Assembly: GCA_043798915.1 (NCBI GenBank)
Contig: JAZDOG010000098.1
Coordinates: 1-32,713 of the forward strand
Direction: 5' to 3'
From: Pseudomonadota bacterium
Lineage (GTDB): Bacteria > UBA10199 > 2-02-FULL-44-16 > JAAZCA01
DNA: 32,713 nt
Numbering within the stretch: the stretch's first letter is position 1; every line of letters begins with the position of its first letter. Under the pieces are notes generated by a model, which made no database searches, was not told the origin of the DNA, and saw only the letters and a list, made by a program, of their open reading frames with translations. The translations under genes and the position numbers were made by a program. Below are positions 6,742 to 26,987 of the stretch, piece by piece.

Positions 6742-7893
6742 TTATCCCGCTATCTCTTTCAGCACATTCCTCGCTATCACGATTCGCTGGACCTCCGAGG
6801 TTCCCTCGTAGATCTCCGTGATCTTCGCGTCCCTGAAATAGCGCTCGACCGGGTATTCCTTGCAATAGCCGTAGCCGCCCAGCACCTGGACCGCGTCCTT
6901 CGTCACCATCGTTGCCGTCTCGGAGGCGAAGAGCTTGGCCATCGCGGCCTGCTTGGCGATGTTTTTGCCGTGGTCCTTGAGCCATGCCGCGCGGTGGACG
7001 AGGAGGCGCGCCGCATCGATGTTCATCGCCATGTCGGCGAGCTTCCACTGTATCCCCTCGAATGCGCTGATCGGCTGGCCGAACGCCTCGCGCTCCTGCG
7101 AATATTTCGCCGCCACCTCAAACGCCGCGCGCGAGATCCCCAGCGCCTGTGTCCCGATGCCGATCCTTCCGGAATCGAGCGTGTCGAGCGCCACAGTGAA
7201 GCCATTTCCCTCGCCGCCCATGAGGTTTTCCTTCGGCACCTCGCAGTTCTCCAGCACGATGCTGGATGTCGACGACGCCCTGATGCCGAGTTTGTGCTCC
7301 TTCTTGCCGACGGAATAGCCGGGAAAAGTCTTCTCCACGATGAACGCGCTGATCCCCTTGTGCCTCTTGGCCTTGTCGGTCATGGCGTAGACGATCATCG
7401 CGTCGGCGTTCGGACCGTTGGTGATGAAGTTTTTCGTGCCGTTCAGGATGTATCTGTCCCCTTTGAGGACCGCCGTGGTCTTCTGGTTGGCCGCGTCCGA
7501 CCCGGCGCCGGGCTCGGAGAGCGCGTAGGCGCCGAGCTTCAAGCCCTTCGCAAAATCCGGCATATACCTCTTCTTCTGCTCATCGCTCCCCCATCGGCCG
7601 ATGCAGCCGAGATAGAGCGAGTTGTTGACCGACATGATGACGGCGGTCGAGGCGCACGCGGCGGCGATCTCCTCTAGCGCAATCACATACGAGAGCATCT
7701 CCATCCCTGAGCCGCCGAGCTCTGTCGGGGCCATCATCCCCATGAGCCCCAGCTCCCCCATCATCTTCACCTGCTTCTCCGGGAAGGTCTCGTTCTCGTC
7801 CCACCCGGCGGCGTTGGGAGCCAGCTCCTTCTGCGCAAAGTCCCGCGCCATCTCGCCTATCATCTTCTGCTCGTCGGTCATTATGAAATCCAT
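6742..7893 (-). CDS. Acyl-CoA dehydrogenase (butyryl-CoA dehydrogenase-like)
   Basis: [29 protein letters not shown] and [10 protein letters not shown] motifs. Confidence 0.95.
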
Positions 7894-7910
7894 GTGTCAC
7901 CTCGCATGAG

Positions 7911-8759
7911 CTAATACGTATAAAATCCCCTGCCCGTCTTCCTGCCTAGCCAGCCCGCGTCCACGTATCTCCTGAGCAACGGAGATGGCCGATACCTCGG
8001 GTCGCCAATATCGCGATGGAGGACGGAGAGAATCGCCAGGACCGTGTCGAGGCCGATAAGATCGGCCAGCGCAAGCGGCCCCATCGGAAAATTGCAGCAG
8101 ACCTTCATGCACTCGTCGATGTCCTCGCGCGCCGCCACGCCCTCGTGCAAGGCGCCGATCGCCTCGTTGATCATCGGCATCAACACCCTGTTGGCGATGA
8201 ATCCCGGGGCGTCGTTAGACCTGACCGCGGCCTTCCCAAGCTTGGCGATCAGATCCATGACGACCTGCTCAGTCTCGTCGGATGTGGCAAGCCCGCGGAT
8301 GACCTCCACGCCCTTCATCAGCGGCACCGGGTTCATGAAGTGCATCCCGATGACGCCCTGCGGCCTCTTCGTCGCGGCGGCTATCCGCGTGATCGAGATG
8401 GAAGATGTGTTTGTCGCAAGGATCGCTGAGGGCGCAAGGGTCTCGTCCAACTTCTTGAATATCTCTATCTTGAGCGCTTCGTTTTCTGTCGCCGCCTCGA
8501 TGGCGATGTCAGAACCCTTGAGATTGGCGACATCGGCAGTGATCGAGATCCTCTTCTGCGCTGCGGATCGATCATCGCTGGATATCTTGCCCTTCTCCGC
8601 CATCTTGCGGAGCGACGATTCGATCGCCGCGAGGCCCCTTTTGCAGAACGAGACGTCGATGTCGCGCATCACCACGTCGAAGCCGGCGACCGCGAAGACC
8701 TGCGCGATCCCGCTGCCCATCTGCCCCGCCCCGACCACGCCGACCTTTTTTATCACCAT
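7911..8759 (-). CDS. hbd: 3-hydroxybutyryl-CoA dehydrogenase
   Basis: GAGQMGSG Rossmann motif, [25 protein letters not shown]; start at ATG 8759 after GGGGAGG. Confidence 0.93.
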
Positions 8760-8903
8760 GGCATCCTCCCCTGTCACCACAACCGCTATGCGCTTGAAAC
8801 CCGCCGGAGTATTGTGAGCGGAGCCGCTTTTGTCAACCGCGTAGCTTGCAAAAGAATGACGGCAGGTGTATCTGTTCTCCTCACAAATCCAAAGGGGGTC
8901 AAC

Positions 8904-9320
8904 ATGTCGGTTGAAATGGACGTCCGGTACGACGGAGGATTTCGCTGCACGGCAACCCACGGGCCATCGGGAATCACGATGACGACCGACGCACCGACGG
9001 ACAACGGCGGAAAAGGCGAGGCCTTTTCGCCGACGGACCTCGTGGCGGCGGCGCTGGGCACGTGCGTGATGACGATCATGGCCATGATGGCCGAGCGAAG
9101 CGGCTTGGATCTCACGGGCACGCGCATCCATCTGGTCAAGGATATGGCCACAGCCCCAAGCCGCCGCATCGGGAGGGTCGGGGCCACCATCACGTTCCCG
9201 AAGGGTTTGAAGATTTCGGACGCCGACCGGATCAAACTCGAGAGAAGCGTGGAGTCATGCCCCGTGAAACAGAGCCTGCACCCGGACATCAAGGTGGCAA
9301 CCGAGTTCATCTATCCATAG
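8904..9320 (+). CDS. OsmC family protein
   Basis: TDAP.DNGG.G..FSPTDL.AAALGTC and CPV..SL motifs; start at ATG 8904 after AAGGGGG. Confidence 0.9.
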
Positions 9321-9341
9321 AGGCGAGTTGAAGATTCAGGA

Positions 9342-10502
9342 TCACTTTTGCCAGCACATATCATCAGGGGGAGAAACGGCCTCAAGGCGCTTCGCATAAT
9401 TCTTTCTCAGATGGCCATCTCTTGTGAGAAGATCGTGCTGTTTGAGCCTCTTCTCGATATGAGAGAACATCGCCTTGAAATATGGGCACATGGTTGACTT
9501 GTGAAGGAAGTTCCCCCGCCCGCGTCCCAGGTTCGGGCATCCACCGTAACACTTCTCGAAATATCTGCATCCGGCGCATTCCTCTTTGACGATGTCATAG
9601 CGGCCGAGCAGCATCTTTCGCGCAGGGGATTCCATGATTTCATCCATGGACTGACTGAAGATATTTCCATAGATATATCGCCCAAAGTCCATGCGGGAAC
9701 AATTATATGCCGTTCCGTCCGGATTGAAATGGATAGTATGTTCCGGACATGACTTTGAAAAGGCGCAGTCGCCAAGCCCATCCTTTGCACCCGCGAGAGC
9801 AGCGATAAAACAACCGAAGTTCGTTATTATGATATCAGCATCCCGGTCATAGAACCAGAGATCGAACAGCTTCATCGAAAATCTGGCGTATTCCGTGGGC
9901 GTGATTCCATAGAGATTTTCTTTTCGGGGGCCAAGGTGATGCGAAGGAACGGTGCTGAACGAGAGATTCCGCTCCCTGAAAAAACGATAGATTTCCTCCG
10001 CGCGCCCTATGTTCTGCCTGGTGATTACGCAAAGCATACTGCACCGAATGCCGTGCTCGTTCAGGATATCGAGATTCTTGAGAACGGCCGCTTCGGTGGG
10101 CGCCCCGTTCCTGAAAACGCGGTTTACATTGATCGCATCGAAGGAAACACCGACAGTCCCCATCCTGCCGGTCTTGAAAAGTTCCAGATAGTCCTCATCC
10201 AGGAGGGTGAGGTTCGTTTGAATGCCGTTTATGATATTGAACTTTTTATCACAAAAAATTTGATCCTGAAGCTCCAGAACCCTCCAATAGAATGACACCG
10301 GCATCAACATCGGCTCGCCGCCATGCCAGACAAATAACAGCTTAGAGGGATTTGAGTCCTTGAGGTAGAAATCTCTGATCCTGTTAAAGAGCCTTTCGAT
10401 CTTCTTTACCGTAAACACGTCATCCCTGTTATGATGCGCATGTTCATAACAGTATTTGCAGCGCAGGTTGCACCTCTTGGTGGTTTTGATGATGATATTC
10501 AT
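9342..10502 (-). CDS. Radical SAM/SPASM-domain peptide maturase (anSME-like fold)
   Basis: CNLRCKYC, WHGGEP, IQTN; SPASM cysteines CAFSKSC...YNC...YGNI...CAGCRYFEKCYGGCP...C; start 10502 or 10532. Confidence 0.9.
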   Translation of the reverse strand: MNIIIKTTKRCNLRCKYCYEHAHHNRDDVFTVKKIERLFNRIRDFYLKDSNPSKLLFVWHGGEPMLMPVSFYWRVLELQDQIFCDKKFNIINGIQTNLTLLDEDYLELFKTGRMGTVGVSFDAINVNRVFRNGAPTEAAVLKNLDILNEHGIRCSMLCVITRQNIGRAEEIYRFFRERNLSFSTVPSHHLGPRKENLYGITPTEYARFSMKLFDLWFYDRDADIIITNFGCFIAALAGAKDGLGDCAFSKSCPEHTIHFNPDGTAYNCSRMDFGRYIYGNIFSQSMDEIMESPARKMLLGRYDIVKEECAGCRYFEKCYGGCPNLGRGRGNFLHKSTMCPYFKAMFSHIEKRLKQHDLLTRDGHLRKNYAKRLEAVSPPDDMCWQK

Positions 10503-10520
10503 TGATATGAACAGACATAA

Positions 10521-10560
10521 ACACCCACACATGGCGGCATGTCACGCCATATGTAGGTGT
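10521..10560 (-). terminator. 16-bp RNA hairpin between precursor and maturase (attenuator or mRNA stabiliser)
   Basis: Minus strand ACACCUACAUAUGGCG-8 nt loop-CGCCAUGUGUGGGUGU pairs fully with two G-U wobbles, followed by UUAUGU. Confidence 0.65.
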
Positions 10561-10597
10561 CAACCGCCGAATTATCGCGTTCCAACCGCTGATCCGC

Positions 10598-10789
10598 TTA
10601 CCTCGTGGTCTTTTTCACCGCAGCAGGCTTCCCCATCGGCACTGTCGCTCGAACTGCGGGAATCACGCCTTTTTTCACCTGATCGGTCGGACGACTAACC
10701 TTATCCACCCTGCCTTTTCCGCTGCTCTGCAGCCAGTCCATCCACATCAACTCGCCCGGCTCAACCTCGTTATACAGTTTCTTCGGCAT
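10598..10789 (-). CDS. 63-aa putative RiPP precursor peptide (WMDWLQ motif)
   Basis: AAAGGAGG RBS before ATG 10789, promoter upstream, co-oriented directly before the rSAM/SPASM gene. Confidence 0.75.
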   Translation of the reverse strand: MPKKLYNEVEPGELMWMDWLQSSGKGRVDKVSRPTDQVKKGVIPAVRATVPMGKPAAVKKTTR

Positions 10790-10831
10790 ACAATCCTCCT
10801 TTGAATGAAAGAACACCTCACCCAATGACTG

Positions 10832-10859
10832 ATTATACGCCCTGTCGCTCTTTTTACAA
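10832..10859 (-). promoter_or_regulatory. Sigma70-type promoter for the precursor gene
   Basis: Minus strand TTGTAA-N16-TATAAT about 40 nt upstream of ATG 10789. Confidence 0.6.
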
Positions 10860-11016
10860 CATTTTCCTCCCCCGTCAGGATGGAATTGAATTGCCTTTCA
10901 GGGAGTAACCGGTTGATATATAATATAAAATATTATTCCAGTGCTGACTAAATAATTTTAACTGCGGTTGAACTCAGAACTCAGAACAAAACTTTCCCTT
11001 TCATTATCGAACCGGT

Positions 11017-11508
11017 ATGATTGCATTCATGCGCGGCAAAGCTACAAAATTCAGCCCCAGTCCCAAGCGAACATCGCCATCCCCACGCACTTCTATACAA
11101 CTCAATCATGAGACTGATGGCAGAACGATATCGCTGATCCACATCCGCATGAGGCTTGGGCAGGGAAGGTGGACAGGCACAAAGGCATTTCTCGATTCAG
11201 GCGCTCACACCAGCATATTCAATGCAAGGACGATGAAACGACTTGGAGTGTCTCCCTCCGTCGGAAAAATTGCCTCCATGCGAGACGGAAGCGGGAGGGT
11301 ATTTCGGTGCCGCCGGCGCAAGATCGAGGTGAAGGTGGGAAACCTCATCCTCCCCTTGAACGCGGCATTCTCTGAAGAGTTCAACATGGGCTTCAATATA
11401 CTGGGGATGGATTTCTTCTCTCAGACAGTCATAACCTTCGACATACCAAACAAGAGGATCCTGATCAGGAAAGAGGGACAAGGACGCCCAGCAGATCCAA
11501 TGTGTTGA
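11017..11508 (+). CDS. Retropepsin-like (clan AA) aspartic protease
   Basis: AFLDSGA catalytic motif and NILGMDFF motif; start uncertain. Confidence 0.8.
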   Translation: MIAFMRGKATKFSPSPKRTSPSPRTSIQLNHETDGRTISLIHIRMRLGQGRWTGTKAFLDSGAHTSIFNARTMKRLGVSPSVGKIASMRDGSGRVFRCRRRKIEVKVGNLILPLNAAFSEEFNMGFNILGMDFFSQTVITFDIPNKRILIRKEGQGRPADPMC

Positions 11509-13453
11509 TAAACTGAATCATCATATTATATGCGCTGGCATCTCGACCCACCGATATGCCACAGAGCTTCATGGCTTCCCCGACAGTCGTTCCAACCTCC
11601 AAAGCCCCAAGCAGCTTCAGGGACTCCCGCCTTCTCCCAACGACCCTGATCTGATCGCGCAGGACATACTCGGTTTTCCCTCTGTCATCTTTCAACTTTT
11701 TAATACGGCGTGGATTCAGATGGTACTTTCGATCGAGGATCCTCGAGAGACGAAAGTAGCCGGAATTCACCGGCCTTTCTCTAACCCTGTCTCCAAACAG
11801 CAAATCGTCGTCAAATAAAACCATCGCTAATTGATCAGCTTTTAAAAAAAGCAACGACCTGTTCTGGTGAAGCCCATTGATCCACTTATCCCACGCCATC
11901 CATTTTCTCGTAGCACGGGCCTTATCCTGCTTATTTTTCAGGATGTCGATGCTGAACAAATTGGAACCGAACAACGTCGCCGAAGAGGGAGCCGTTGTGA
12001 TGCCAAATTTGCCGGGATCCGCAGCGATGTCGGAATCGGAAAAGAGCTGAAAACCAGACAGGACGATGTTTGATATGAAGGGTACATACGGCGTGATGCG
12101 ATCGAGGGTGAGGACAAAGTCATCGGGCGTTTCCATAGGCAGGTCGAAGATCAGAAAAAGCGTCGGCTTCAAACCGCAGTCGCAAGCGCTTTCGATTGCC
12201 TTCAGCTGATCCCCTGCCAACAACCCCCTGTTCATAGCGCGCAGGACATCGTCGCTCAGCGACTCGACCCCGAACTGGATGCCCCTGAGCCCGCTCGCCT
12301 TGAGCTGTTCGAAGCGCGCTTTCGTCCAGCCTCTCTCCGGGCGAACCAGCGTATTCCATCGAACATCCAATTTGAGTTTGCGTATCGATTCGGCAATATC
12401 CAAAGCATCCTTTGGCGCAAGGGCCGAGCCAGCATTGAAAAACTTGCCACAGCCAAACTTTTTTTCGATACCCTTCATCTGTTCCGCAACGATCGGGCCT
12501 GGTCTGGCCATATATCTGGAAACCGTTTTTTTGCTGCAGTAAGAGCACCTGCGCCAATAGCACCCTTCAGATAGGGCATAGCTGAAATCGCGAGGCACGC
12601 TGAAATAACGATCCACTGGGAGGCACCCATATTTAGGGACGAGAAATGGGGCGCCAAGAGGACGGTCTCCTCCATTCAAAATCCGCGGCCACGCCTTTCC
12701 CTCAGAGCACATCCCGATTAGTTTCGAAAGCGCCCCTTCGCCATGGCCCAGCACGCAACAATCTATCGAGCTTGGAACCTGAGATTCATCGAAGACTGTA
12801 CCAAATGCGATTGTCGAAGCCGGCCCTCCTATCAGGAGCCGCACATCCCGATATTCTCTGCGTATATAATCCGCATATCCCACAACATTTACGAGCTGAC
12901 GGTGTGTGATGATTGAAAAACCAACGATATCCGGTTTCCACCGAAGGGCACCGTCAATCAATGATTGGATCCTCCTGAAGTGAGGAGGTATAATTCTGGC
13001 ATCATGATGATTGGCGGCCTCAAGAGCATGGATGATATTCCAGCACCTCTTGATCAGATCGTGCGCCCTGTAGTATTCCCTGGCGGAAAAGGACTGCGGC
13101 TTTTTCAGTATCCGGCTGGCTGCTCGATGATCCTCTGGGAGATCATCGCACCATCGGCGGACCCATGCCGACAGCTCAAAAAAACTTCTCTTCGGCAACC
13201 TCCTCGACCTGACCGTCGTCTCCAGCGCCTTTTGCAATTCGCCCGTCCCCTCGGGGCTCAGCATCCAGCGCGCGATCTCCAGATTCAGATCGCAGGCCTG
13301 CACCGACACCCCCTGTTCCTCAAGGCAGGCGGCAAGCTGCGGTATCGAGAGATAGGGGGAGCCGACATCCCAGACAGGCGGAAAAAAGAAGAGGACCTTC
13401 GTCCTCCCCTCATCCTTCCGATCTATTCTCCTGCTATGTGCGGATCCTGGCAT
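11465..13453 (-). CDS. Cobalamin-binding (class B) radical SAM protein, putative peptide methyltransferase
   Basis: N-terminal PYLSIPQLAA..DLN, DIVGFS, LIGGP, GHGE B12-domain motifs; GCYWRRCSYC; FGVESLSDDVL..M.RG. Confidence 0.88.
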   Translation of the reverse strand: MPGSAHSRRIDRKDEGRTKVLFFFPPVWDVGSPYLSIPQLAACLEEQGVSVQACDLNLEIARWMLSPEGTGELQKALETTVRSRRLPKRSFFELSAWVRRWCDDLPEDHRAASRILKKPQSFSAREYYRAHDLIKRCWNIIHALEAANHHDARIIPPHFRRIQSLIDGALRWKPDIVGFSIITHRQLVNVVGYADYIRREYRDVRLLIGGPASTIAFGTVFDESQVPSSIDCCVLGHGEGALSKLIGMCSEGKAWPRILNGGDRPLGAPFLVPKYGCLPVDRYFSVPRDFSYALSEGCYWRRCSYCSKKTVSRYMARPGPIVAEQMKGIEKKFGCGKFFNAGSALAPKDALDIAESIRKLKLDVRWNTLVRPERGWTKARFEQLKASGLRGIQFGVESLSDDVLRAMNRGLLAGDQLKAIESACDCGLKPTLFLIFDLPMETPDDFVLTLDRITPYVPFISNIVLSGFQLFSDSDIAADPGKFGITTAPSSATLFGSNLFSIDILKNKQDKARATRKWMAWDKWINGLHQNRSLLFLKADQLAMVLFDDDLLFGDRVRERPVNSGYFRLSRILDRKYHLNPRRIKKLKDDRGKTEYVLRDQIRVVGRRRESLKLLGALEVGTTVGEAMKLCGISVGRDASAYNMMIQFINTLDLLGVLVPLS

Positions 13454-13460
13454 CGGCTGT

Positions 13461-14711
13461 TCACCATCGGTTTGGCATGTCCATTTGTCTTATGGTCTTC
13501 GCTATCAAGCCACGACACAGGACCTTCATGTCCCGGTCGGCCTTCGTTCTCCATATGTTAAAATATTCATCCATCTTCGCCTTTTTCTTGTACATATCGG
13601 GCAGCGGCACTGGGATGAACCACTGAGCGCAGCTTCGAAACTCCAATCCCTCATAGATTTTTTTTAAACCGTCGTAGTATTTTTCAAACTTCTTCAGCTT
13701 TCCCCGGTAGATCACGATCTTGCATTTGGAATGCGTCTTAGCAAAGTGGCTCAGCACAGCCTTCAAATAGCCGTATCTCTTTTCAATATCCCTATGGAAC
13801 GGCTCAGCAAAAGGGAAGATAAAGTAGCACATATTGAAAGATTCGACAATTTTCTGGAGGGTGTCGACCGGCGGCAGATTGAAATATTCAAACTCGTAAT
13901 ACAGATCCAGATCATATCTGCGCGAACATATCTTATCCACATACTCCCGCCCCAGCATGCTGGCAAAGTCAGAGATGACATACACTCGCTTCACGCATTC
14001 GTCGCGGCTCAAGCGCCGCAGGTCCCGAACGACGCTCTCAGGACTTCTCGCGACCAATCCCCTCTTATATATTTTCCGCAAGGTTCCCCTTCTGGCATAG
14101 CAGAATTCGCAATCGTATCTGCACCCCTTGTACGCCGTGATGAACGGGTAGGTGCCAAGTATCTCGTTGAGGGGGCTCCCAAATGGAATGGAGCTGTGCA
14201 CCTTCTTCATCCGCTCTTTATAGGTTGGGAACCAATCGATCGTGATACAATCGCTGGCGCTATATGCATCCCCAGATACGGCATAGGATTGCGGAGCAGA
14301 GCGCCCGCGGCTGATGACATTGGGCACGTCTCTTGTGTCCAAACCGTCGAGCAAGCGGTCCACCAGCATACTGAAGGGATATTCGGCGTCTCCCTTGATC
14401 ACATAGTCTATGTCATAATGCTCGACGATGGGCTCTGCAAAGATTGTGGCAGTATGCCCCCCAACGATGATCTTCAGGACAGGGTTTATCTTCTTGAATT
14501 GGGCCGCCATCCTTCCGATTTCGCCAAGCGGAAAATACCAGTGGCAATCCATCACGACTATCCTGCTGTTTCGTATGTCGCGATCCCGCACCTCAAAATT
14601 GAGTTTGCCCAGCTTGGAGCAATCCAGGCTGTTCATCAACCCTATCAGACCTGACGGAATGCTGTAATCGGAGGGCCTGCCGCTTGGATGTATATAGAGG
14701 ATATCTCTCAT
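13461..14711 (-). CDS. Cobalamin-binding radical SAM protein, short and divergent
   Basis: MDCHW, IIVGGHTA, IKGDAE B12-domain motifs; KGCRYDCEFC; RSPESVV; start at ATG 14711. Confidence 0.82.
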   Translation of the reverse strand: MRDILYIHPSGRPSDYSIPSGLIGLMNSLDCSKLGKLNFEVRDRDIRNSRIVVMDCHWYFPLGEIGRMAAQFKKINPVLKIIVGGHTATIFAEPIVEHYDIDYVIKGDAEYPFSMLVDRLLDGLDTRDVPNVISRGRSAPQSYAVSGDAYSASDCITIDWFPTYKERMKKVHSSIPFGSPLNEILGTYPFITAYKGCRYDCEFCYARRGTLRKIYKRGLVARSPESVVRDLRRLSRDECVKRVYVISDFASMLGREYVDKICSRRYDLDLYYEFEYFNLPPVDTLQKIVESFNMCYFIFPFAEPFHRDIEKRYGYLKAVLSHFAKTHSKCKIVIYRGKLKKFEKYYDGLKKIYEGLEFRSCAQWFIPVPLPDMYKKKAKMDEYFNIWRTKADRDMKVLCRGLIAKTIRQMDMPNRW

Positions 14712-14733
14712 ATATGGTTTTTCACATCGGATG

Positions 14734-15675
14734 TTATCGCCTGGCCGACACACGAGCTGGCACTTCGGATGCGGTCTCCCCAAGATTGTACGGCTTAAAC
14801 CCAGGACATCGTAATTTAAATGCGCATTTTTTACATTGCGGATCGATATTCGCTTCCTTCTTCACAATTATGCCGGTGGTCATCCGCGGATCGAAATATA
14901 CTATCGGCTGTCGCAAAGGATCCGGAAGAAAACCATTCCTCGTGCAATCGCTGCGATTTTTTCGTTCCAGGACGCAATACGGGATGTGCGACACCAGACA
15001 ACGAACCCTGCCCATCGCCACGGCAGATGCCGCCTTATTGAGCAAGGCCTTCGTCTTCAGCATATCCACGGCGAATTCGGCAATATTGGCCTTCGCTTCT
15101 CCGGTATAAAGTGCGGGGTTCAAGCTGATATAGTCGACCTTCGGAAAATGGCCTGCAATCCATCGCGCGACAGCCGGATTTATGCGATACGTCGCCTTGC
15201 ACTGCAGCAGCTTGACCTCGACGATCAGCTCGTATCCCTTATCTTTTAAATCGCAAAGATTGCGGATGGCAGCACATGCTTTTTCAAATGACCCGCCCCT
15301 CCCGGTCATCGCATCATGCTGGCCGGACGTTTTGCCGTAGAGAGGTATGCAGATATAGTCAAGGCCGCAGCGGGCCAGCTTCGCTGCATACCGAGGATCT
15401 GCGAGTTTGATGCCATTCGTGAAGAGGTTCGACCTCGCCCCTCGCCTTTTTATTTCCTCAAGCATCCCACAGAGCCCATCGTGAAGCGTCGGCTCACCGC
15501 CGTTGATGATGATCCTGTCCCCTCGGCCTATCTTCCACTTTCTCAAGATTGACATGATTGTTCTGGTGGATATCTGGGAATGGCGGTCAAGATTCGCGGC
15601 GCAGAACCAGCATCGCTGGTTGCAGCGCAACGTGATATTGAAATAAAGGATTTTCATGTTTGCCCAATTTAGCAT
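14734..15675 (-). CDS. Radical SAM protein, HxsC-like, with C-terminal Cys motif
   Basis: CNQRCWFC, NGGEPT, FTNG, HDAMTG..GSF, HIPYC, C-terminal CKKCAFKLRCPG; start 15675 or 15657. Confidence 0.82.
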   Translation of the reverse strand: MLNWANMKILYFNITLRCNQRCWFCAANLDRHSQISTRTIMSILRKWKIGRGDRIIINGGEPTLHDGLCGMLEEIKRRGARSNLFTNGIKLADPRYAAKLARCGLDYICIPLYGKTSGQHDAMTGRGGSFEKACAAIRNLCDLKDKGYELIVEVKLLQCKATYRINPAVARWIAGHFPKVDYISLNPALYTGEAKANIAEFAVDMLKTKALLNKAASAVAMGRVRCLVSHIPYCVLERKNRSDCTRNGFLPDPLRQPIVYFDPRMTTGIIVKKEANIDPQCKKCAFKLRCPGFKPYNLGETASEVPARVSARR

Positions 15676-15746
15676 TTCTCCTGGGCGAAGACTAGGCTAA
15701 TATTCTTTTGGGCTAGCACGGCGGGCGGCTGATGTAGGAAGTTGGC

Positions 15747-16862
15747 TCATCTGCTCTGGCTCTGCTTATCCGTTACGTCGACGAACGGAATCTGTGGTGA
15801 AAGATTATATTGTTTTCCAACAGCTCGCAGTTCGCTCAAATCGTATTTGCTGTGGCAACCGGCATCCCAGCTGGATTTCCATCTGCCCATGACGATCCAA
15901 TTCACACCCGATGTTGTGAATTGCTGTTCCCCGTTATACTTGCGATAGACCTTGCCCGCTGTCGGGTCAGTCAGCACCCAGCGCCCCGTTCGTCGGTCAA
16001 ACACCTCGACGAGATCATGGCCCACATCCATATCGCCGTCGCCATATATGAATTCTGCACCCACCACCTTGAGAAGGCGAGCCTCCATACCAGTATTTTT
16101 CAGCAGCGACAGGAAGGTCTCCGCATAATCTCCACAAGCGAAAACGAACCGCGATCCGATCACTTCATGTGCGCTGCGGCGGCACACAAACAGGCTCGAG
16201 GGGCTCCCTTTTCTGGCCGCAAAAGGAGTGTTCTCATACTCGCCCAAGCTCGACATCCTTTTGCGGAACTCCAGCATGATCCCTTCAAGCGACTCCTCGG
16301 AGCCTATCCCGGCGAAAAAATCCCTTATGACGGACGTCGGGTAATTCTGCTGCACTCCTGGGGGTTGACCGTCGAGTTCAGCAAACGAACTGAACATGGC
16401 AGCTTCTGCTCTCAGATACGCATCGTCCAATTCGGCGAGCGGCAGTTTTGCGCCCATATATGTTTCCAACGACCTCTGAAAGCTACTGAGATACGGATCC
16501 GAAAAATCATCGACACAGGTGTTTGCAGAAGGCGGCGTCTCTTCACAGACGCGCAATTCGCGGAGGTCAATTCTGTTTTCGCCGTCTTTTCCGCACATCC
16601 CGCTCAAGAGAAGCCTGAATCGGGCCGCTCTCGGAATATACTCATTCGCTGGATCGCTTGGGCTCTCAGCTTCGATGGATATCGTCCCCAGGCTATCTGA
16701 ATAGGAATCGATGCGCAGGTGCCGTGCGCCGTCCTCACGATGACCGATCGTGCAGGTGCCCACGGCGCTCGTCTGCATGCTGTCAGAGAAACGATCCTGA
16801 AGACACCGGTCTTCCAGCACTTTAAATAGCTGATCGTTCCTCTCGATCTGACATATTGCCAT
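15747..16862 (-). CDS. Transglutaminase-like (papain-fold) domain protein
   Basis: Cys-His-Asp triad: ACGDYA..F..LL...G..AR, GHDLVEVF, WVLTDPT; start uncertain. Confidence 0.78.
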   Translation of the reverse strand: MAICQIERNDQLFKVLEDRCLQDRFSDSMQTSAVGTCTIGHREDGARHLRIDSYSDSLGTISIEAESPSDPANEYIPRAARFRLLLSGMCGKDGENRIDLRELRVCEETPPSANTCVDDFSDPYLSSFQRSLETYMGAKLPLAELDDAYLRAEAAMFSSFAELDGQPPGVQQNYPTSVIRDFFAGIGSEESLEGIMLEFRKRMSSLGEYENTPFAARKGSPSSLFVCRRSAHEVIGSRFVFACGDYAETFLSLLKNTGMEARLLKVVGAEFIYGDGDMDVGHDLVEVFDRRTGRWVLTDPTAGKVYRKYNGEQQFTTSGVNWIVMGRWKSSWDAGCHSKYDLSELRAVGKQYNLSPQIPFVDVTDKQSQSR

Positions 16863-17064
16863 TATGGCCTCAGGGCGTGAGGTAGACCCGCAACCACGGG
16901 CCGTCAATTTATTATCGTCCGAATGCCAAATTTGTTGCGCACATTTTTATTAACTGATTCACCTTATAAAACAAGTATTTATAGGCGCACCTCCCGCTTT
17001 TCCCGCTTGTGCTGAGGGGGGCTCTGCCTTATGATTCTGCGCACTCTGAGCAAGCGGAGAATAC

Positions 17065-18096
17065 ATGGAAGACCTGAAATGCATTTTAAAAAAATGGCAA
17101 ACTTTCTTAAATGACAAAGATGAGAAGGAATACCTCACAATATTCGTTCACATCCCGTTTTGTTCCTCCAAATGCAGATATTGCATGTACGCCTCGCGGG
17201 TATTGAAGGATCGCAGCCAGATCGACGATCATCTCATTTTTTTGGACAAGGAGATGTCATATTTTTCCCAGTTATTCAGAAAAGAAAAAATATCCTGCCT
17301 TTATATAGGCGGCGGCACCCCATCGATCATGTCTGTGGATCAGATGAAGAGGCTGTTCGATATCATACAATCGAATTTTGAACTGGATATGGATGAAGGA
17401 AACATGTTCTCCATCGAAACCAATCCAGCCCATCTGGACACTGACAAAATTGATTTTCTGACAGGCTCGTTCATCAACAGGGTGAGCGTCGGCATTCAGT
17501 CGTTTGACCGAAATGTTATGGAGGCAGAAAGGAGAAAGAATCCGTCCGGCGAAAGAATCTCGTATCTCCTCGGATATCTCATGGCGTCCCTGAAACATAA
17601 GAGGTCGAGCGTCAATGCCGACCTGATGATCGGCCTTCAGAAGGAGCGGAAGGAAAAGATACTGATGGGGCTCAATACCCTGTCGGACATGGACATCCCG
17701 AGGATAACCCTTTACGCATGCAGAAAAAAAAGAACCCCGGCCGAGCAAAAGAGATTTGAAAAATATGTGGTCTCATCGATAAAACATATTGATTCCCGCC
17801 TGACCAAATATCAACTGACGACGGACGACGTCGCCGCCTTTTCAGAGAGCAACATCTTTTATCACAAAGACATCTCTTGTGGTTTTAAAAAATGGTACGA
17901 TCCCCTCCCATCGATATACAACAACACCCTTGGTTTCGGCGTTGCTTCAAATTCATACATTATTCCTTTGAATTTTTGTTACAGAAGACGCCGGGATGGA
18001 TGGCACATAATCGCAGACAAGTACTATGACGGGGTATTCAAAAGAGCCAATGAAGCGCGAGAGACCCTTTCCGCCGATGATATATTGTACCTGTAG
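17065..18096 (+). CDS. HemN-like (class C type) radical SAM protein
   Basis: FVHIPFCSSKCRYC, LYIGGGTPS, ETNP, RVSVGIQSF, NADLMIGL; divergent and short C-terminus. Confidence 0.85.
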   Translation: MEDLKCILKKWQTFLNDKDEKEYLTIFVHIPFCSSKCRYCMYASRVLKDRSQIDDHLIFLDKEMSYFSQLFRKEKISCLYIGGGTPSIMSVDQMKRLFDIIQSNFELDMDEGNMFSIETNPAHLDTDKIDFLTGSFINRVSVGIQSFDRNVMEAERRKNPSGERISYLLGYLMASLKHKRSSVNADLMIGLQKERKEKILMGLNTLSDMDIPRITLYACRKKRTPAEQKRFEKYVVSSIKHIDSRLTKYQLTTDDVAAFSESNIFYHKDISCGFKKWYDPLPSIYNNTLGFGVASNSYIIPLNFCYRRRRDGWHIIADKYYDGVFKRANEARETLSADDILYL

Positions 18097-18099
18097 AAC

Positions 18100-19560
18100 C
18101 TATGCGGCTACGTAGCCGGCCAGCCTTGCAATCCAGCTCCATGCCAGTCCGAACACGACCGTCGCAACGGCCAGCGCCGCAAGCAGGACCGCAAGCCCCC
18201 TGCCCTCGATGGTGAATAACTGTTCCGAGGCTGCCTGGTCGAAGAAGATCGCCTTCACGATGCGCATGTAATAGTAGAGCGAGACGACGCTGTTCGCGAT
18301 GCCCACTGCCGCAAGCCACCAGAGCTTTGCATCAATGACCGCCGAGAAGAGATAGAATTTTCCGATAAAACCAATGAACGGCGGGACGCCGGTGAGCGAG
18401 AGGAGAAACACCGTCATCGCGATCCCCAGGAACGCGCCGTATGCCCCGGAGCGCCCCACCCCGGCAAACGCGGAGATGTCGTCCGACCCGCACCTGTTCG
18501 AAACTATCTGGACGACGAGGAACGCGCCGAGGTTCATGATGAGATACGCCACGAAATAGAAATAGACCGCCTCGTTTCCCTTCGCACTCGCACAAGCAAG
18601 ACCCATGAGGAGATATCCGGCGTGGGCGATGGAAGAATACGCGAGCAGGCGCTTCGCGTTCGTCTGCGGGATCGCCGCCAGATTGCCCAAAGTCATCGTC
18701 GCGGCGGAGACCACAGCGAGGATCGCCGGCCAGCCCATGGCCGGCCCGATGAGAGTGGCGACCCTCATCAGGACCGCAAAACCGGCGGCCTTGGGCGCCA
18801 CGGAGAGAAGAGCCGTGATGGGAGTAGGCGCGCCCTCGTATGCGTCGGGGCACCAGGCCTGCATCGGAACCGCGGCGACCTTGAAGAGGAAGCCACCGAG
18901 AATGAGGATCCCGGCTACGGTAGAGGCAAGCCCTATCCCCGATGAGGCCGGCGAAAACGCGAAGAGGTCGAGCGAACCCTGGAGGCCGTAGAGGATGCTC
19001 GCGCCGAAGAGGAATACGCCGGATGCCACCGCTCCGAAGAGGACGTACTTGAGCGCCGCCTCTGAGGACCTCACGGAATTCCGCGTGAAGCCCACGAGCA
19101 TATAGGACATGAGCCCCACGAACTCGATCGCGAGGTAGATCACGAGGAGGTTGCGCGCCGCCGCCAGCAGGTCCATGCCGACGACCATCCCTAAAATCAG
19201 GGCGTAATATTCAAAATCATCCTTCGTGGATCGTGAATCGTAAGTACCCAACTCGCGCGATTTTTGAGAAAACACGACGACCGCAAGCGCCGTCGCCGCA
19301 AAAATGAGTTTGAAGAACACAGCGGGGCGGTCGAGGACGAGAAGATTCAAAAAGAGCGATGGCTCAAGGACGCCCCACTGGGCGACGATGAAACACGACG
19401 ACGCGACAAGCCCAGCTGCGGCCACATATGGCGCCATGCGGGAAATGACACCCCCTTGTCTTACGAGGGCCCCAAGCGCCGCCAGGCAAAGCAGCACCAC
19501 CGCCACACCGCAGAGGATGAGTTCGGGGATGAAATATGTGAGGCTCGCTATATTTGGCAT
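18100..19560 (-). CDS. nuoN: NADH-quinone oxidoreductase subunit N
   Basis: EAALKY, FKVAAVPMQAWCPDAYEGAPTP, KRLLAYSSIAHAGY. Confidence 0.95.
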   Translation of the reverse strand: MPNIASLTYFIPELILCGVAVVLLCLAALGALVRQGGVISRMAPYVAAAGLVASSCFIVAQWGVLEPSLFLNLLVLDRPAVFFKLIFAATALAVVVFSQKSRELGTYDSRSTKDDFEYYALILGMVVGMDLLAAARNLLVIYLAIEFVGLMSYMLVGFTRNSVRSSEAALKYVLFGAVASGVFLFGASILYGLQGSLDLFAFSPASSGIGLASTVAGILILGGFLFKVAAVPMQAWCPDAYEGAPTPITALLSVAPKAAGFAVLMRVATLIGPAMGWPAILAVVSAATMTLGNLAAIPQTNAKRLLAYSSIAHAGYLLMGLACASAKGNEAVYFYFVAYLIMNLGAFLVVQIVSNRCGSDDISAFAGVGRSGAYGAFLGIAMTVFLLSLTGVPPFIGFIGKFYLFSAVIDAKLWWLAAVGIANSVVSLYYYMRIVKAIFFDQAASEQLFTIEGRGLAVLLAALAVATVVFGLAWSWIARLAGYVAA

Positions 19561-25939: not shown

Positions 25940-26128
25940 TTAGATATCCCCCTTGCGAAACTGTTCCCATATCCTTCGACGCCTGGGTGTAAGACCCTCA
26001 TAAGAAAGTTTTGCGGCATCGTCGAGCCATGCAAGCCGCATCTCGGGCGGCATCTTCCTGTATTCCCGAATCATCTCGCGCGTGATGTGGGACTTTACCC
26101 CGCCAAGTTTTGACTCATCCCTTGTCAT
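25940..26128 (-). CDS. Small hypothetical protein (62 aa), likely partner of the nucleotidyltransferase
   Basis: AGGAGG RBS, overlaps the upstream gene; helical MPPEMRLAWL segment. Confidence 0.65.
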   Translation of the reverse strand: MTRDESKLGGVKSHITREMIREYRKMPPEMRLAWLDDAAKLSYEGLTPRRRRIWEQFRKGDI

Positions 26129-26633
26129 TAGCAAGCTCCTCCTTGAGTTTCTCCAGTGCTTCGATGTCCGACATATCCTGCAATCTCATCGCCTCGCGTT
26201 TTAGCTGAATCAAGTGGTCTATGGATACTATGGGGATTGTGATATTGTCGAGGGTGATAGTCTCCTTGTCGCGCCACATATCGGCAAACGGTATCGGCTC
26301 GTTGACAAATACATCTACAACCTCATAAGGCAAATCGGGTTTCTGAAATGAAAAGACGCGCATGTTTTTTTCTGCAATCCAGCGCTTGCGGTTTTCAGGG
26401 TCGGCGAAGGCCTCTGCCGGAACCGGCACTTTTGGCTTGAAACCCAGCCTCGTCATGCACTGCGCAAACTTCACGACATTTTCCCGTTCGAGCGCGACGA
26501 TCAGATCGAGGTCAGCGGTGAACCGCGGCACACCCAACAGATTGACCGCAATCCCCCCTGCGACAACGAATTTCACATCGTTCGCCGCCAGCTCACTGAA
26601 GACATCCATGTACCATGAACGCATTTTATTCAC
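26115..26633 (-). CDS. Minimal nucleotidyltransferase-fold protein
   Basis: VVAGGIAV, RFTADLD, VDVF and LIQLKREAMRLQDMSD motifs of pol-beta-like NTases; GTGA overlap with upstream gene. Confidence 0.82.
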   Translation of the reverse strand: MNKMRSWYMDVFSELAANDVKFVVAGGIAVNLLGVPRFTADLDLIVALERENVVKFAQCMTRLGFKPKVPVPAEAFADPENRKRWIAEKNMRVFSFQKPDLPYEVVDVFVNEPIPFADMWRDKETITLDNITIPIVSIDHLIQLKREAMRLQDMSDIEALEKLKEELANDKG

Positions 26634-26923: not shown

Positions 26924-26940
26924 TTTCCGGCCTCCAAAAC

Positions 26941-26987
26941 TACACCGATGAGTGTAAATAGTGACACCCATAGGTGTCAACTATTTT
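26941..26987 (-). promoter_or_regulatory. Sigma70 promoter overlapped by two palindromic operators
   Basis: Minus strand TTGACA-N18-TACACT; ACAC-N6-GTGT palindromes at 26942 and 26964. Confidence 0.65.

What the first reader, a model, noticed from the sequence alone, without database searches (positions are those of the whole stretch)
9342..18096. Candidate undescribed RiPP cluster with five radical SAM enzymes of four types
Seen: a precursor-like peptide, an rSAM/SPASM enzyme, a clan AA protease, two B12-binding rSAMs, an HxsC-like rSAM, a transglutaminase-like protein and a HemN-like rSAM lie together between housekeeping genes (osmC and nuoN). Established: SPASM enzymes cross-link peptides, and class B and class C rSAMs methylate them. 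Inference: together they make a cross-linked, multiply methylated peptide. I do not recognise this combination as a characterised pathway. No exporter is present, and the genes sit in at least four transcription units.
Basis: partly seen in the sequence, partly recalled or inferred. Interest (0 to 1): 0.92.

Follow-up and report, generated by a model that had tools for sequence, protein, structure and literature searches.

The report
Rare five-radical-SAM peptide maturation island
A foreign stretch of DNA in this uncultured bacterium carries a small conserved peptide gene surrounded by five radical-SAM enzymes and two proteases, a very rare and undescribed enzyme set that most likely builds a heavily modified peptide of unknown role.

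Summary
Window 9342-18096 is a low-GC island (0.45-0.53 against about 0.60) between osmC and nuoN. It encodes five radical-SAM proteins with intact cluster motifs: an anSME/DynA-like SPASM enzyme, two B12-binding enzymes, an HxsC-like enzyme and a HemN-like enzyme. It also encodes a transglutaminase-fold Cys-His-Asp protein, a retropepsin-like DSGA protease and a 63-aa peptide.

Seven of these nine genes recur in the same order in one metagenome contig (L003), between different housekeeping genes. Synonymous sites there are saturated and all seven genes are under purifying selection. The first 19 codons of the peptide show 7 synonymous and 0 replacement differences. A hairpin with compensatory changes separates the peptide gene from the SPASM gene.

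SPASM and HxsC-like enzymes are adjacent in one distant genome and fused in another. The large B12 enzyme's C-terminal domain resembles PqqD, a lead only.

The HemN-like gene is missing from L003, so it is accessory at best. No curated family cut-off is met, and five literature searches found no description.

The best reading is a RiPP-type peptide-maturation cassette. The chemistry and the role (antibiotic or HXS-like antiphage effector) are untested. It is a new variant of a known kind.

The parts
9342..10502 (-). SPASM-domain radical SAM enzyme, 386 aa. anSME/DynA-like, with no N-terminal RRE. The ORF is open up to 10532, but the start at 10502 matches the orthologues.
   Evidence: Pfam PF04055 and PF13186. 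NCBIfam DynA 215.4 bits (cut-off 450) and anSME TIGR03942 198.2 bits (cut-off 349.45). PDB: anSME 4k37 E 3.8e-32 and ChlB 9gm3 E 3.9e-20. CNLRCKYC triad. Eight invariant C-terminal Cys in 9 family members. 78% identity to the L003 orthologue, dN/dS 0.056.
10520..10561 (-). Conserved RNA hairpin between the peptide stop codon and the SPASM start codon. It is a candidate attenuator or processing site that could set the precursor-to-enzyme ratio.
   Evidence: 17-pair stem in the terminator scan. RNAalifold on window plus L003 gives 15 pairs, 3 with compensatory double changes, 4 with one-sided changes and none broken.
10598..10789 (-). Precursor-like peptide, 63 aa: MPKKLYNEVEPGELMWMDWLQSSGKGRVDKVSRPTDQVKKGVIPAVRATVPMGKPAAVKKTTR. 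The N-terminal 20 residues are acidic and invariant. The tail is basic, Lys-rich and variable, with a conserved S-R-P-x-D block.
   Evidence: AAAGGAGG lies 6-7 nt before the ATG in both loci, and the flanking intergenic DNA is poorly conserved. In the first 19 codons, 7 synonymous and 0 replacement differences. Over the whole gene pN is 0.30 and pS 0.85. The only homologue among 5.8 billion proteins is the L003 peptide. pI is 4.4 for residues 1-20 and 11.6 for the rest.
10832..10859 (-). Promoter-like site upstream of the peptide gene (TTGTAA, 16 nt spacer, TATAAT).
   Evidence: 10 of 12 consensus matches. This is a consensus match only: the region as a whole has no more such sites than shuffles.
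11017..11508 (+). Retropepsin-like (clan AA) aspartic protease, 163 aa, with a DSGA active-site motif. It is a candidate processing protease.
   Evidence: PF13975 E 5.1e-09 and PF13650 E 2e-06. TIGR02281 only 16.5 bits (cut-off 57.95). PADLOC candidate PDC-M08B E 2.1e-05. 58% identity to the L003 orthologue, which sits on the opposite strand to its neighbours there as well. dN/dS 0.22.
11465..13453 (-). B12-binding radical SAM enzyme 'B12a', 662 aa, with an unusual CX4CX2C triad and a C-terminal winged-helix domain (about residues 571-662) that resembles PqqD/RRE peptide-binding domains.
   Evidence: PF02310 E 2.4e-11 and PF04055 E 1.5e-13. Best NCBIfam match TIGR04072, 82.5 bits (cut-off 360); RiPP C-methyltransferase TIGR03975, 70.6 bits (cut-off 281.85). 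Atlas structure search: PqqD TM 0.69 and MftB chaperone TM 0.65, both by target and all under the tool's bar. CYWRRCSYC in the window and CYWHKCFYC in L003. dN/dS 0.12.
13461..14711 (-). B12-binding radical SAM enzyme 'B12b', 416 aa.
   Evidence: PF02310 E 8.3e-06 and PF04055 E 4.9e-05, both under the gathering score. TIGR04190 98 bits (cut-off 500). CRYDCEFC triad. Nearest solved structure 9ccb, E 2.1e-04, named QCMT in PMC12931638. The family is broad: 140 representatives at E<=1e-30. 73% identity to the L003 orthologue.
14734..15657 (-). HxsC-like radical SAM enzyme, 307 aa, non-SPASM, with a C-terminal CxxCx5C.
   Evidence: TIGR03977 HxsC 119.2 bits, E 1.5e-34 (cut-off 267.9); the next family scores 57 bits. 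CNQRCWFC triad. Relatives lie next to (L065) or are fused to (L057) anSME-like SPASM enzymes.
15747..16862 (-). Transglutaminase-fold protein, 371 aa, with an invariant Cys243-His282-Asp299 triad. It is a candidate cysteine protease or transamidase, and its N-terminal roughly 165 residues have no known fold.
   Evidence: PF01841 E 0.005. Triad invariant in 4 of 4 family members. Atlas structure search: residues 166-368 match Transglut_core/DUF553 clusters, and two rows meet the bar. Only 3 homologues in 5.8 billion proteins. dN/dS 0.12.
17065..18096 (+). HemN-like (class C type) radical SAM protein, 343 aa. It lies inside the low-GC island but is not part of the conserved cassette, so it is a possible accessory.
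   Evidence: PF04055 E 3.7e-14. STM4012 family 122 bits, ChuW/HutW 120.6, HemN 118.7, all below cut-off. GC 0.447. No match in L003. The genome has two other HemN/HemW paralogues. The only closer relative (43%) lies in G005 among three B12-rSAM genes.

Best explanation
This is a horizontally acquired, very rare peptide-maturation (RiPP-type) cassette.

**Shown here**
- A 63-aa peptide gene and an anSME/DynA-like SPASM radical-SAM gene lie on the same strand, behind a promoter-like site, consistent with one transcription unit. A conserved hairpin lies between them.
- A divergently placed retropepsin-like protease gene is part of the unit.
- A four-gene operon is also part: transglutaminase-fold Cys-His-Asp protein, HxsC-like rSAM and two B12-binding rSAMs.
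- These genes travel together as one unit.

**Inferred**
1. The SPASM enzyme acts on the invariant acidic N-terminal block (Tyr6, Trp16, Trp19). It either forms a carbon-carbon or ether cross-link at an aromatic residue, as its cyclophane- and daropeptide-forming relatives do, or oxidises the conserved Ser of the S-R-P-x-D block, as anSME does. Both give -2 Da.
2. The HxsC-like enzyme works as its partner, as in HxsB/HxsC pairs.
3. The two B12-rSAMs add methyl groups (+14 Da each) at unactivated carbons. The large one docks on the peptide through its PqqD-like C-terminal domain.
4. The transglutaminase-fold protein and/or the aspartic protease cut the peptide and release a modified, strongly basic product.

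The neighbouring HemN-like rSAM may add a further methylation in this host only. The biological role of the product is not known.
For: - **Island.** GC is 0.45-0.53 against about 0.60 in the flanks. The transglutaminase-like marker was found in 1 of 93 genomes of the phylum (the window's own genome only). Among 41 genomes (the window's own and 40 relatives), only one relative gave a hit, a weak 80-residue match.
- **Conserved unit.** 7 of 11 window queries (all 7 cassette genes) match L003 in the same order and relative orientation, at 58-78% amino-acid identity. L003's flanks are rarA/MgsA and recN, not osmC and nuoN. pS is 0.64-0.85 (saturated) while pN is 0.12-0.30 for all seven genes.
- **Peptide is real.** It has a shared RBS, 7 synonymous and 0 replacement changes in codons 1-19, and a hairpin with 3 compensatory pairs before the SPASM gene.
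- **SPASM enzyme.** Its nearest relatives are peptide or protein maturases: DynA, anSME, DarE, GrrM/OscB, AmcB and YhhB. Its nearest solved structures are anSME and the cyclophane synthase ChlB (the role of ChlB is taken from passages of PMC12912966).
- **SPASM and HxsC-like link.** They are adjacent in L065, next to a Trp-rich 48-aa ORF. In L057 they are fused into one 710-aa protein next to a Lys-rich LysM protein.
- **B12a C-terminus.** It resembles PqqD and MftB peptide chaperones in the Atlas structure search. This is a lead only.
- **Active sites.** All five rSAM Cys triads, the DSGA motif and the Cys-His-Asp triad are intact.
Against: - Only one other complete locus could be inspected. 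The contigs of the other 2 transglutaminase homologues and 7 SPASM homologues could not be fetched.
- By longest-contig length, none of the contigs holding the 7 further close SPASM relatives coincides with a contig holding a transglutaminase homologue. The full cassette may therefore be rarer than the peptide/SPASM core. This comparison is weak.
- No exporter, immunity gene or regulator is present.
- Every family match is below its curated cut-off, so the chemistry is analogy only.
- The RRE assignment is under the Atlas tool's bar. My own AlphaFold model of that domain was poor (pLDDT 58) and gave no significant Foldseek match (best E 2.3).
- The best NCBIfam matches of B12a are lipid enzymes: TIGR04072 and the hopanoid methylase HpnR.
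- The conserved part of the peptide is N-terminal and the variable part C-terminal. This fits a conserved leader with a variable core, but equally a non-RiPP small protein.
- The cassette sits in several transcription units.
- L003 adds Sir2-like and HD genes that have no obvious RiPP role.
Confidence: 0.62

Rival explanations
1. Same maturation logic, different role. The cassette is an HXS-like antiphage system. Radical-SAM enzymes and proteases mature a small, strongly basic peptide into an effector that acts on incoming nucleic acid or on the envelope. It would not be an exported antibiotic.
For: [quoted passage not shown]
- HxsC is by far the best curated match of the 307-aa rSAM.
- The peptide tail has pI about 11.
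- In L057 the fused SPASM and HxsC-like enzyme sits beside a Lys-rich LysM (peptidoglycan-binding) protein.
- L003 carries Sir2-like and HD-domain genes inside the cassette, domains common in defence systems.
- The protease matches the PADLOC candidate PDC-M08B.
- The distribution is patchy, the island is low-GC, and there is no exporter.
Against: - HxsC scores 119.2 bits (cut-off 267.9) and HxsB 51.8 bits (cut-off 370). No island protein matched the HxsD family.
- The peptide has no histidine and therefore no HxS repeat, no signal peptide and no peptidoglycan-binding domain.
- The only PADLOC system matches were generic rSAM-core matches to pVip.
- Sir2 and HD are absent from the window.
- Neither locus lies in a recognisable defence island.
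Confidence: 0.2
2. Two unrelated units are juxtaposed. The peptide and SPASM gene form a small RiPP pair. The operon (transglutaminase-like, HxsC-like, B12b, B12a) modifies something else, such as a lipid, a cofactor or a large protein. The HemN-like gene is a third, independent gene.
For: - The genes lie in separate transcription units on different strands.
- The best NCBIfam matches of B12a are lipid enzymes.
- The nearest solved structure to B12b is a protein methylase, not a RiPP enzyme.
- There are 8 close SPASM homologues but only 3 transglutaminase homologues.
- The HemN-like gene is missing from L003.
Against: - Both sub-units are kept together, in the same order, in two loci whose synonymous sites are saturated and whose flanking genes differ.
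- The HxsC-like family is adjacent to, or fused with, SPASM relatives elsewhere, which ties the two sub-units together.
- B12a has a PqqD-like C-terminal domain (a lead only).
Confidence: 0.13
3. Chance clustering or decaying genes: an assembly of unrelated, non-functional radical-SAM paralogues in a junk island.
For: The sequence comes from a metagenome-assembled genome with 3.26% estimated contamination. The gene junctions with osmC (21 nt) and nuoN (3 nt) are very tight.
Against: - All seven shared genes are under purifying selection.
- All catalytic motifs are intact.
- Synteny is shared with an independent contig.
- The island is embedded in a 32.7-kb contig between high-GC native genes on both sides.
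Confidence: 0.03

Closest known systems
HXS antiphage system (HxsA/HxsB/HxsC/HxsD; Li et al., Nat Commun 2026, PMC13128918)
   Same: A SPASM rSAM and an HxsC-type rSAM are paired with a ribosomal, basic substrate that is proteolytically processed. HxsC is the best curated match of the 307-aa enzyme. The distribution is mobile and patchy.
   Different: Scores are below the HxsB and HxsC cut-offs. There is no HxsD, no HxS repeats (no His at all) and no peptidoglycan-binding domain. The substrate is 63 aa rather than more than 200. The cassette has two B12-rSAMs, a transglutaminase-fold protein and a retropepsin-like protease in addition. The two rSAM genes are about 4 kb apart, whereas that paper reports HxsB and HxsC as always close together (section 10).
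Daropeptide and triceptide maturases (DarE, DynA; three-residue cyclophane-forming enzymes such as ChlB, GrrM/OscB, AmcB, YhhB)
   Same: The SPASM enzyme lacks an RRE, sits immediately downstream of a small peptide gene with Trp/Tyr in its conserved block, and has DynA as its best NCBIfam match and ChlB as its second solved relative. PMC12912966 (passages) states that cyclophane-forming enzymes and daropeptide maturases share an origin.
   Different: All scores are far below cut-off (DynA 215/450, DarE 136/650). The aromatic block is at the N-terminus of the peptide rather than in a C-terminal core. Four more enzymes and two proteases are attached, which is not known for these classes as far as I recall. 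That darobactin and dynobactin cross-links involve Trp is also from recall.
Anaerobic sulfatase-maturating enzyme (anSME; TIGR03942; PDB 4k36-4k39)
   Same: It is the closest solved structure (E 3.8e-32 over the whole length) and has the same architecture with two auxiliary clusters (8 invariant Cys). The peptide has a conserved S-R-P-x-D block reminiscent of the (C/S)-x-P-x-R sulfatase motif (that motif is from recall).
   Different: The score is 198.2 bits, below the cut-off of 349.45. No sulfatase gene lies in the island. The final Arg of the motif is Asp here.
Proteusin-type RiPPs (polytheonamide: B12-rSAM C-methyltransferases PoyB/PoyC plus an rSAM epimerase and a protease)
   Same: Several rSAM enzymes, including two B12-dependent ones, and a cysteine-type protease act on one ribosomal peptide rich in Val/Thr/Ala. 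PoyC is named as a valine C-beta-methylase in a title seen in the reference list of PMC9062424; the rest is from recall.
   Different: TIGR03975 scores 70.6 bits (cut-off 281.85). There is no nitrile-hydratase-like leader, as the peptide has no Pfam or NCBIfam match. There is no PoyD-type epimerase family match.
Lasso-peptide B proteins (RRE plus transglutaminase-like leader peptidase)
   Same: A transglutaminase-fold Cys-His-Asp protein in a peptide cluster, with an extra N-terminal domain. The lasso comparison itself is from recall.
   Different: There is no lasso cyclase and no Transglut_core3 match. The N-terminal domain could not be modelled (pLDDT 58.6).

Membership tests
HXS system | HxsC equivalog (TIGR03977) at or above the curated cut-off of 267.9 bits | tested here: not met
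   119.2 bits, E 1.5e-34. It is the best family but below the cut-off.
HXS system | HxsB equivalog (TIGR03978) at or above 370 bits | tested here: not met
   The SPASM enzyme scores 51.8 bits. DynA (215.4) and anSME (198.2) score far higher.
HXS system | Substrate HxsA with His-Xaa-Ser repeats and a peptidoglycan-binding domain; HxsD partner protein | tested here: not met
   Neither the window peptide nor the L003 peptide contains His. The peptide has no Pfam or NCBIfam domain, and no island protein matched an HxsD model.
Dynobactin/darobactin (daropeptide) maturases | DynA (NF041298, cut-off 450) or DarE (NF038005, cut-off 650) equivalog score | tested here: not met
   215.4 and 136.5 bits.
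Triceptide cyclophane synthases (3-CyFE) | Family model at cut-off (GrrM/OscB 310, AmcB 425, YhhB 445, FxsB 370, XyeB 450) and an aromatic-X-X motif in the precursor | tested here: inconclusive
   Scores are 122.7, 106.9, 101.5, 84.5 and 61.8 bits, all below cut-off. The peptide has Y-N-E, W-M-D and W-x-x in its invariant block, but so short a motif is not diagnostic.
Anaerobic sulfatase maturase | TIGR03942 at or above 349.45 bits, and a sulfatase substrate with (C/S)-x-P-x-R | tested here: not met
   198.2 bits. No sulfatase lies in the island. The peptide carries S-R-P-T-D in the window and S-R-P-G-D in L003.
RiPP C-methyltransferase, B12-rSAM (TIGR03975) | Subfamily score at or above 281.85 bits | tested here: not met
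   B12a scores 70.6 bits and B12b 27.6 bits.
RiPP cluster (generic) | Short precursor gene next to a maturase, conserved with it | tested here: met
   The peptide lies 95 nt upstream of the SPASM gene in the window and keeps that position in L003. It is under purifying selection.
RiPP cluster (generic) | RiPP recognition element (PqqD-like winged helix) in at least one enzyme | tested here: inconclusive
   In the Atlas structure search, B12a residues 571-662 match PqqD (TM 0.69 by target) and MftB (0.65), all under the tool's bar. There is no Pfam PqqD hit. My own AlphaFold model was poor and Foldseek found nothing significant.
RiPP cluster (generic) | Processing protease | tested here: met
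   Two candidates by family and intact active sites: the DSGA retropepsin-like protein and the Cys-His-Asp transglutaminase-fold protein. Activity on the peptide was not tested.
RiPP cluster (generic) | Dedicated exporter or immunity gene | tested here: not met
   No transporter domain and no hydrophobic segment in any island protein.
Radical SAM superfamily (all five enzymes) | Three-Cys [4Fe-4S] motif | tested here: met
   CX3CX2C in four proteins. CX4CX2C in B12a, conserved in L003.

The most novel reading that the evidence does not exclude
The cassette is a new kind of mobile immune or competition module. Four to five radical-SAM enzymes, two of them cobalamin-dependent, and two proteases turn a 63-aa precursor into a cross-linked, C-methylated, polycationic peptide. 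That peptide would act on nucleic acid or the envelope inside or at the surface of the producer. It would be an HXS-like antiphage effector built from a RiPP-sized peptide, with Sir2 and HD add-ons in some hosts. Related Lys-rich peptide and B12-rSAM arrays such as the one in G005 would then be a wider, unrecognised family of such systems.
Probability: 0.18. Interest if true: 0.85.

Novelty: new variant of a known kind. Interest (0 to 1): 0.62.

Why it matters
- **New chemistry to test.** This would be a RiPP-type pathway with an enzyme set not found in the curated families or the searched literature: a SPASM enzyme, an HxsC-like enzyme, two B12-rSAMs (one with a non-canonical CX4CX2C motif and a possible built-in peptide-binding domain), a transglutaminase-fold enzyme and a retropepsin-like protease. 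Each is an uncharacterised family with a defined candidate substrate, so the chemistry can be tested directly by co-expression and mass spectrometry.
- **Beyond the HxS motif.** The link between HxsC-like and SPASM enzymes (adjacent, fused and co-conserved) extends the recently discovered HXS logic, in which radical-SAM enzymes mature a basic effector, past Proteobacteria and past the HxS motif.
- **Tempering point.** Uncharacterised radical-SAM peptide clusters are common in genome mining, and the evidence here rests on two loci.

Tried and rejected
- **Complex prediction** of the peptide with B12a residues 540-662: no verdict (score 0.00, controls not run). This counts neither for nor against binding.
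- **Public sequencing runs** for the island: none was listed, and no RNA holder was listed.
- **AlphaFold2 of the transglutaminase-like protein** (4-row alignment): pLDDT 58.6. The best Foldseek PDB hit was a putative cysteine protease, 3isr, at E 0.021, not significant. The fold was instead confirmed through the Atlas.
- **AlphaFold2 of the B12a C-terminal domain** (2 rows): pLDDT 58.0. Foldseek's best hit was a winged helix at E 2.3, which is unusable.
- **Genome-contig scan with the transglutaminase alignment:** 92 pattern matches, 0 relatives.
- **Genome-contig scan with the SPASM alignment:** 555 relatives, the best 80 kept, all at 27-34% identity and none a close family member.
- **Viral-contig scans:** 3 distant SPASM relatives and 0 transglutaminase relatives.
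- **Matching contig lengths** of B12b representatives to SPASM or transglutaminase contigs through cluster look-up: no match. This is uninformative, because the representatives are single proteins.
- **Empty-site test in relatives.** osmC was found in 3 of 14 relatives. The two loci fetched (L088, L089) share no further synteny with the window, so an empty osmC-nuoN junction could not be shown.
- **Remnants of the L003 Sir2-like and HD genes** in the window: none.
- **Second copy of the peptide** in the window's own genome: none.
- **Earlier-findings look-ups** by place (near) and by sequence: nothing.
- **Literature.** 'radical SAM + RiPP + HxsC' returned 1 paper, not relevant to this cassette. 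'radical SAM, RiPP, transglutaminase, aspartic protease, cobalamin' (4 of 5 terms) returned 0. 'RiPP + radical SAM + retropepsin' returned 0. 'radical SAM, B12-binding, defense system, phage, precursor peptide' (4 of 5 terms) returned 2, both irrelevant. '9GM3' returned 0.
- **Lasso-peptide reading** rejected: no cyclase. **Sulfatase-maturation reading** rejected: no sulfatase.

Full report
**What is there**

Reading the minus strand from 16862 down to 11465 there is a tight four-gene operon:
- a 371-aa transglutaminase-like protein;
- a 307-aa HxsC-like radical-SAM protein;
- a 416-aa B12-binding radical-SAM protein (B12b);
- a 662-aa B12-binding radical-SAM protein (B12a).

A 163-aa retropepsin-like aspartic protease (DSGA motif) lies on the plus strand at 11017-11508. 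Its end overlaps the end of B12a by 44 nt. On the minus strand again, a 63-aa peptide gene (10789-10598) is followed by a 386-aa SPASM radical-SAM gene (10502-9342). A 343-aa HemN-like radical-SAM gene lies on the plus strand at 17065-18096.

All five radical-SAM proteins keep their three-cysteine motif. B12a has CX4CX2C rather than CX3CX2C, in this locus and in its orthologue.

The flanks are OsmC and NuoN. No island protein has a transporter domain or a membrane-like hydrophobic segment.

**It is a foreign island**

- GC is 0.447-0.534 across 9-18 kb, against 0.60-0.61 on both sides.
- The transglutaminase-like protein is the most specific marker. A profile of its family matched 1 of 93 genomes held for the phylum, the window's own genome only.
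- The single protein matched 2 of 41 genomes (the window's own and 40 relatives). The second match is an 80-residue hit at E 1e-4.
- I could not show an empty osmC-nuoN site in relatives, because gene order around osmC is not conserved in them.

**It is a conserved unit**

The transglutaminase-like protein has only three homologues among 5.8 billion proteins. One of them lies on a 63-kb metagenome contig, of which I fetched 21 kb (L003).

Of 11 window proteins used as tblastn queries, 7 matched L003 at 58-78% identity, in the same order and relative orientation. These are the transglutaminase-like protein, the HxsC-like enzyme, B12b, B12a, the protease, the peptide and the SPASM enzyme. The HemN-like protein, OsmC, NuoN and Hbd did not match.

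In L003 the cassette lies between rarA/MgsA and recN, so its borders coincide with the seven shared genes.

Synonymous sites between the two loci are saturated (pS 0.64-0.85), while replacement differences stay at pN 0.12-0.30. Where dN/dS could be computed it is 0.06-0.22. The synteny is therefore maintained by selection and is not just recent common descent.

L003 has two extra genes between B12a and the protease: a protein with a partial Sir2 domain and an HD-domain protein. The window holds no remnant of either.

**The peptide is a real gene**

- In both loci an AAAGGAGG box precedes an ATG, while the surrounding intergenic DNA is poorly conserved.
- The first 19 codons (MPKKLYNEVEPGELMWMDW) differ at 7 codons, all synonymous.
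- The rest is a Lys-rich tail with pI about 11. It is much more variable, apart from an S-R-P-x-D...KKG block.
- Between the peptide's stop codon and the SPASM start codon lies a hairpin of 15 pairs. Three pairs are kept by compensatory double changes, four by one-sided changes, and none is broken. From my own knowledge, a stem-loop between precursor and maturase genes is a familiar way of setting their ratio in bacteriocin operons.
- A word-based search of 5.8 billion proteins found only the L003 peptide. The window's own genome has no second copy.

**What the enzymes resemble**

- **SPASM enzyme.** It is closest to DynA (215 bits), anSME (198), DarE (136) and several cyclophane-forming maturases, always below the curated cut-offs. 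By sequence, the closest solved structures are anSME and ChlB. ChlB is treated as a three-residue cyclophane-forming enzyme in PMC12912966 (passages). The enzyme starts directly with its radical-SAM motif, so it has no N-terminal recognition domain. It forms a tight family of nine members, counting itself, at 51-100% identity. After these, identity drops to 34%.
- **307-aa enzyme.** It matches HxsC at 119 bits; the next family scores 57 bits.
- **B12b.** It belongs to a broad unnamed family with 140 representatives at E<=1e-30. Its nearest solved relative, at E 2e-4, is 9ccb, which PMC12931638 names as the glutamine C-methyltransferase QCMT.
- **B12a.** It has only weak family matches; the best are lipid-pathway enzymes. 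The ESM Atlas structure search of its residues 571-662 returned PqqD and MftB peptide chaperones as nearest folds: TM 0.69 and 0.65 by target, all under that tool's bar. My own model of this domain was too poor to confirm this. I treat the recognition element as a lead, not a finding.
- **Transglutaminase-like protein.** The fold is confirmed for residues 166-368, with two Atlas rows meeting the bar. The Cys243-His282-Asp299 triad is invariant in 4 of 4 family members.

**A bridge between the two halves of the cassette**

I tested the 80 distant SPASM loci from the genome scan (all at 27-34% identity) with all window proteins:

| Window protein | Loci with a match (of 80) |
|---|---|
| HxsC-like enzyme | 2 (L065, L057) |
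| Transglutaminase-like protein | 0 |
| Protease | 0 |
| Peptide | 0 |
| B12b | 0 |
| B12a | 2, weak (L079, L037) |
| HemN-like protein | 1, weak (L023) |

- In L065 a Trp-rich 48-aa ORF is followed by three radical-SAM genes. The last two are an anSME-like SPASM enzyme and an HxsC-like enzyme, end to end.
- In L057 the two are fused into one 710-aa protein beside a Lys-rich LysM protein.

Adjacency and fusion in unrelated genomes argue that the SPASM and HxsC-like enzymes work together. This in turn ties the peptide/SPASM pair to the four-gene operon.

**The HemN-like gene**

It lies within the low-GC stretch (GC 0.447) but is missing from L003. The genome has two ordinary HemN/HemW paralogues elsewhere.

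Of 41 genomes searched (the window's own and 40 relatives), 39 have a HemN-type match. Only one relative, G005, has a closer homologue (43% identity, E 1e-83). In G005 that gene sits among three B12-binding radical-SAM genes and three Lys/Arg-rich small ORFs with ribosome-binding sites. That hints at a recurring partnership with B12 enzymes and basic peptides. It remains a hint, so I count the HemN-like gene as a possible accessory and not as a core part.

**Most likely mechanism**

*Shown:* the genes, their intact motifs, their conservation as a unit, and the reality of the peptide gene.

*Inferred from family resemblance:*
1. The SPASM enzyme, helped by its HxsC-like partner, modifies the invariant N-terminal block. 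It either makes an aromatic cross-link or oxidises the conserved Ser. Either gives -2 Da.
2. The B12 enzymes methylate unactivated carbons.
3. One or both proteases separate the acidic block from the basic tail.

I put 0.62 on the peptide-maturation reading as a whole. I put much less on any single chemical step.

**Role of the product**

While checking HxsC, I found that the HXS system has been shown to be an antiphage system. There, HxsB and HxsC mature a basic, N-terminally processed effector (PMC13128918; abstract and sections 9-11 read).

*For an HXS-like role:*
- the basic tail of the peptide;
- the LysM neighbour in L057;
- the Sir2-like and HD genes in L003;
- the lack of an exporter;
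- the match of the protease to a PADLOC candidate.

*Against membership of HXS proper:*
- both enzyme scores are under their cut-offs;
- there is no HxsD;
- the peptide contains no histidine.

I give the defence role 0.2. An alternative view of the Sir2-like gene comes from PMC12912966 (passages). That paper shows ADP-ribosylation as a tailoring step in a triceptide pathway, although by an ART-fold enzyme and not a Sir2.

**Novelty**

None of the nine proteins reaches a curated NCBIfam cut-off. Apart from generic radical-SAM-core matches to pVip, the only PADLOC match is the protease's weak match to candidate PDC-M08B. Five full-text searches found no description of this combination (and 75, which found only HXS). 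Supplementary files of these papers were not opened.

The logic (a ribosomal peptide, radical-SAM maturases and a protease) is well known, so this is a new variant of a known kind.

Noticed in passing
window 26115-26980 (-): A second low-GC patch (0.479 against about 0.60) interrupts the nuo operon between nuoH (24635-25843) and nuoD (27060-28178). It holds a DUF2204-type nucleotidyltransferase gene and an HTH_20 gene, which looks like a toxin-antitoxin-like pair inserted inside a respiratory operon.
   Followed up: no
L099 (G005:C26:4000-23999), 7351-18674: A same-family relative carries an array of three B12-binding radical-SAM genes and the 43%-identical HemN-like gene. Interleaved with them are three Lys/Arg-rich small ORFs (47-51 aa, each behind an RBS), AAA_14/DUF4143 ATPase genes and a DUF772 transposase gene. 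This may be a wider family pairing basic peptides with B12-rSAMs.
   Followed up: partly
L057 9523-12127: In a Pyrinomonadaceae MAG, one 710-aa ORF fuses an anSME-like SPASM radical-SAM enzyme to an HxsC-like radical-SAM enzyme. It lies directly after a 126-aa protein with a Lys-rich N-terminus and a LysM domain, an arrangement reminiscent of HxsA/HxsB/HxsC.
   Followed up: partly
L065 1402-4632: In a Ruminococcus MAG, a 48-aa ORF ending in a Trp-rich stretch is followed by three radical-SAM genes. The last two are an anSME-like SPASM enzyme and an HxsC-like enzyme. This is a compact RiPP-like operon.
   Followed up: partly
window 12556-12564 (B12a residues 298-306) and L003 B12a residues 291-299: The radical-SAM cluster motif of B12a has four residues, not three, between the first two cysteines (CX4CX2C). 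This spacing is conserved in both orthologues.
   Followed up: partly
L003 15423-17308: The orthologous cassette carries two extra in-operon genes. One is a 370-aa protein whose residues 183-286 match only the N-terminal half of Sir2/CobB models. The other is a 258-aa HD-domain protein with a weak Cas3-HD-like match. Both are absent from the window.
   Followed up: partly
window 9320-9342 and 18096-18100: The island's end genes abut the native genes very tightly. 21 nt separate the convergent osmC and SPASM stop codons, and 3 nt separate the convergent HemN-like and nuoN stop codons. That leaves no room for terminators or recognisable insertion scars.
   Followed up: no
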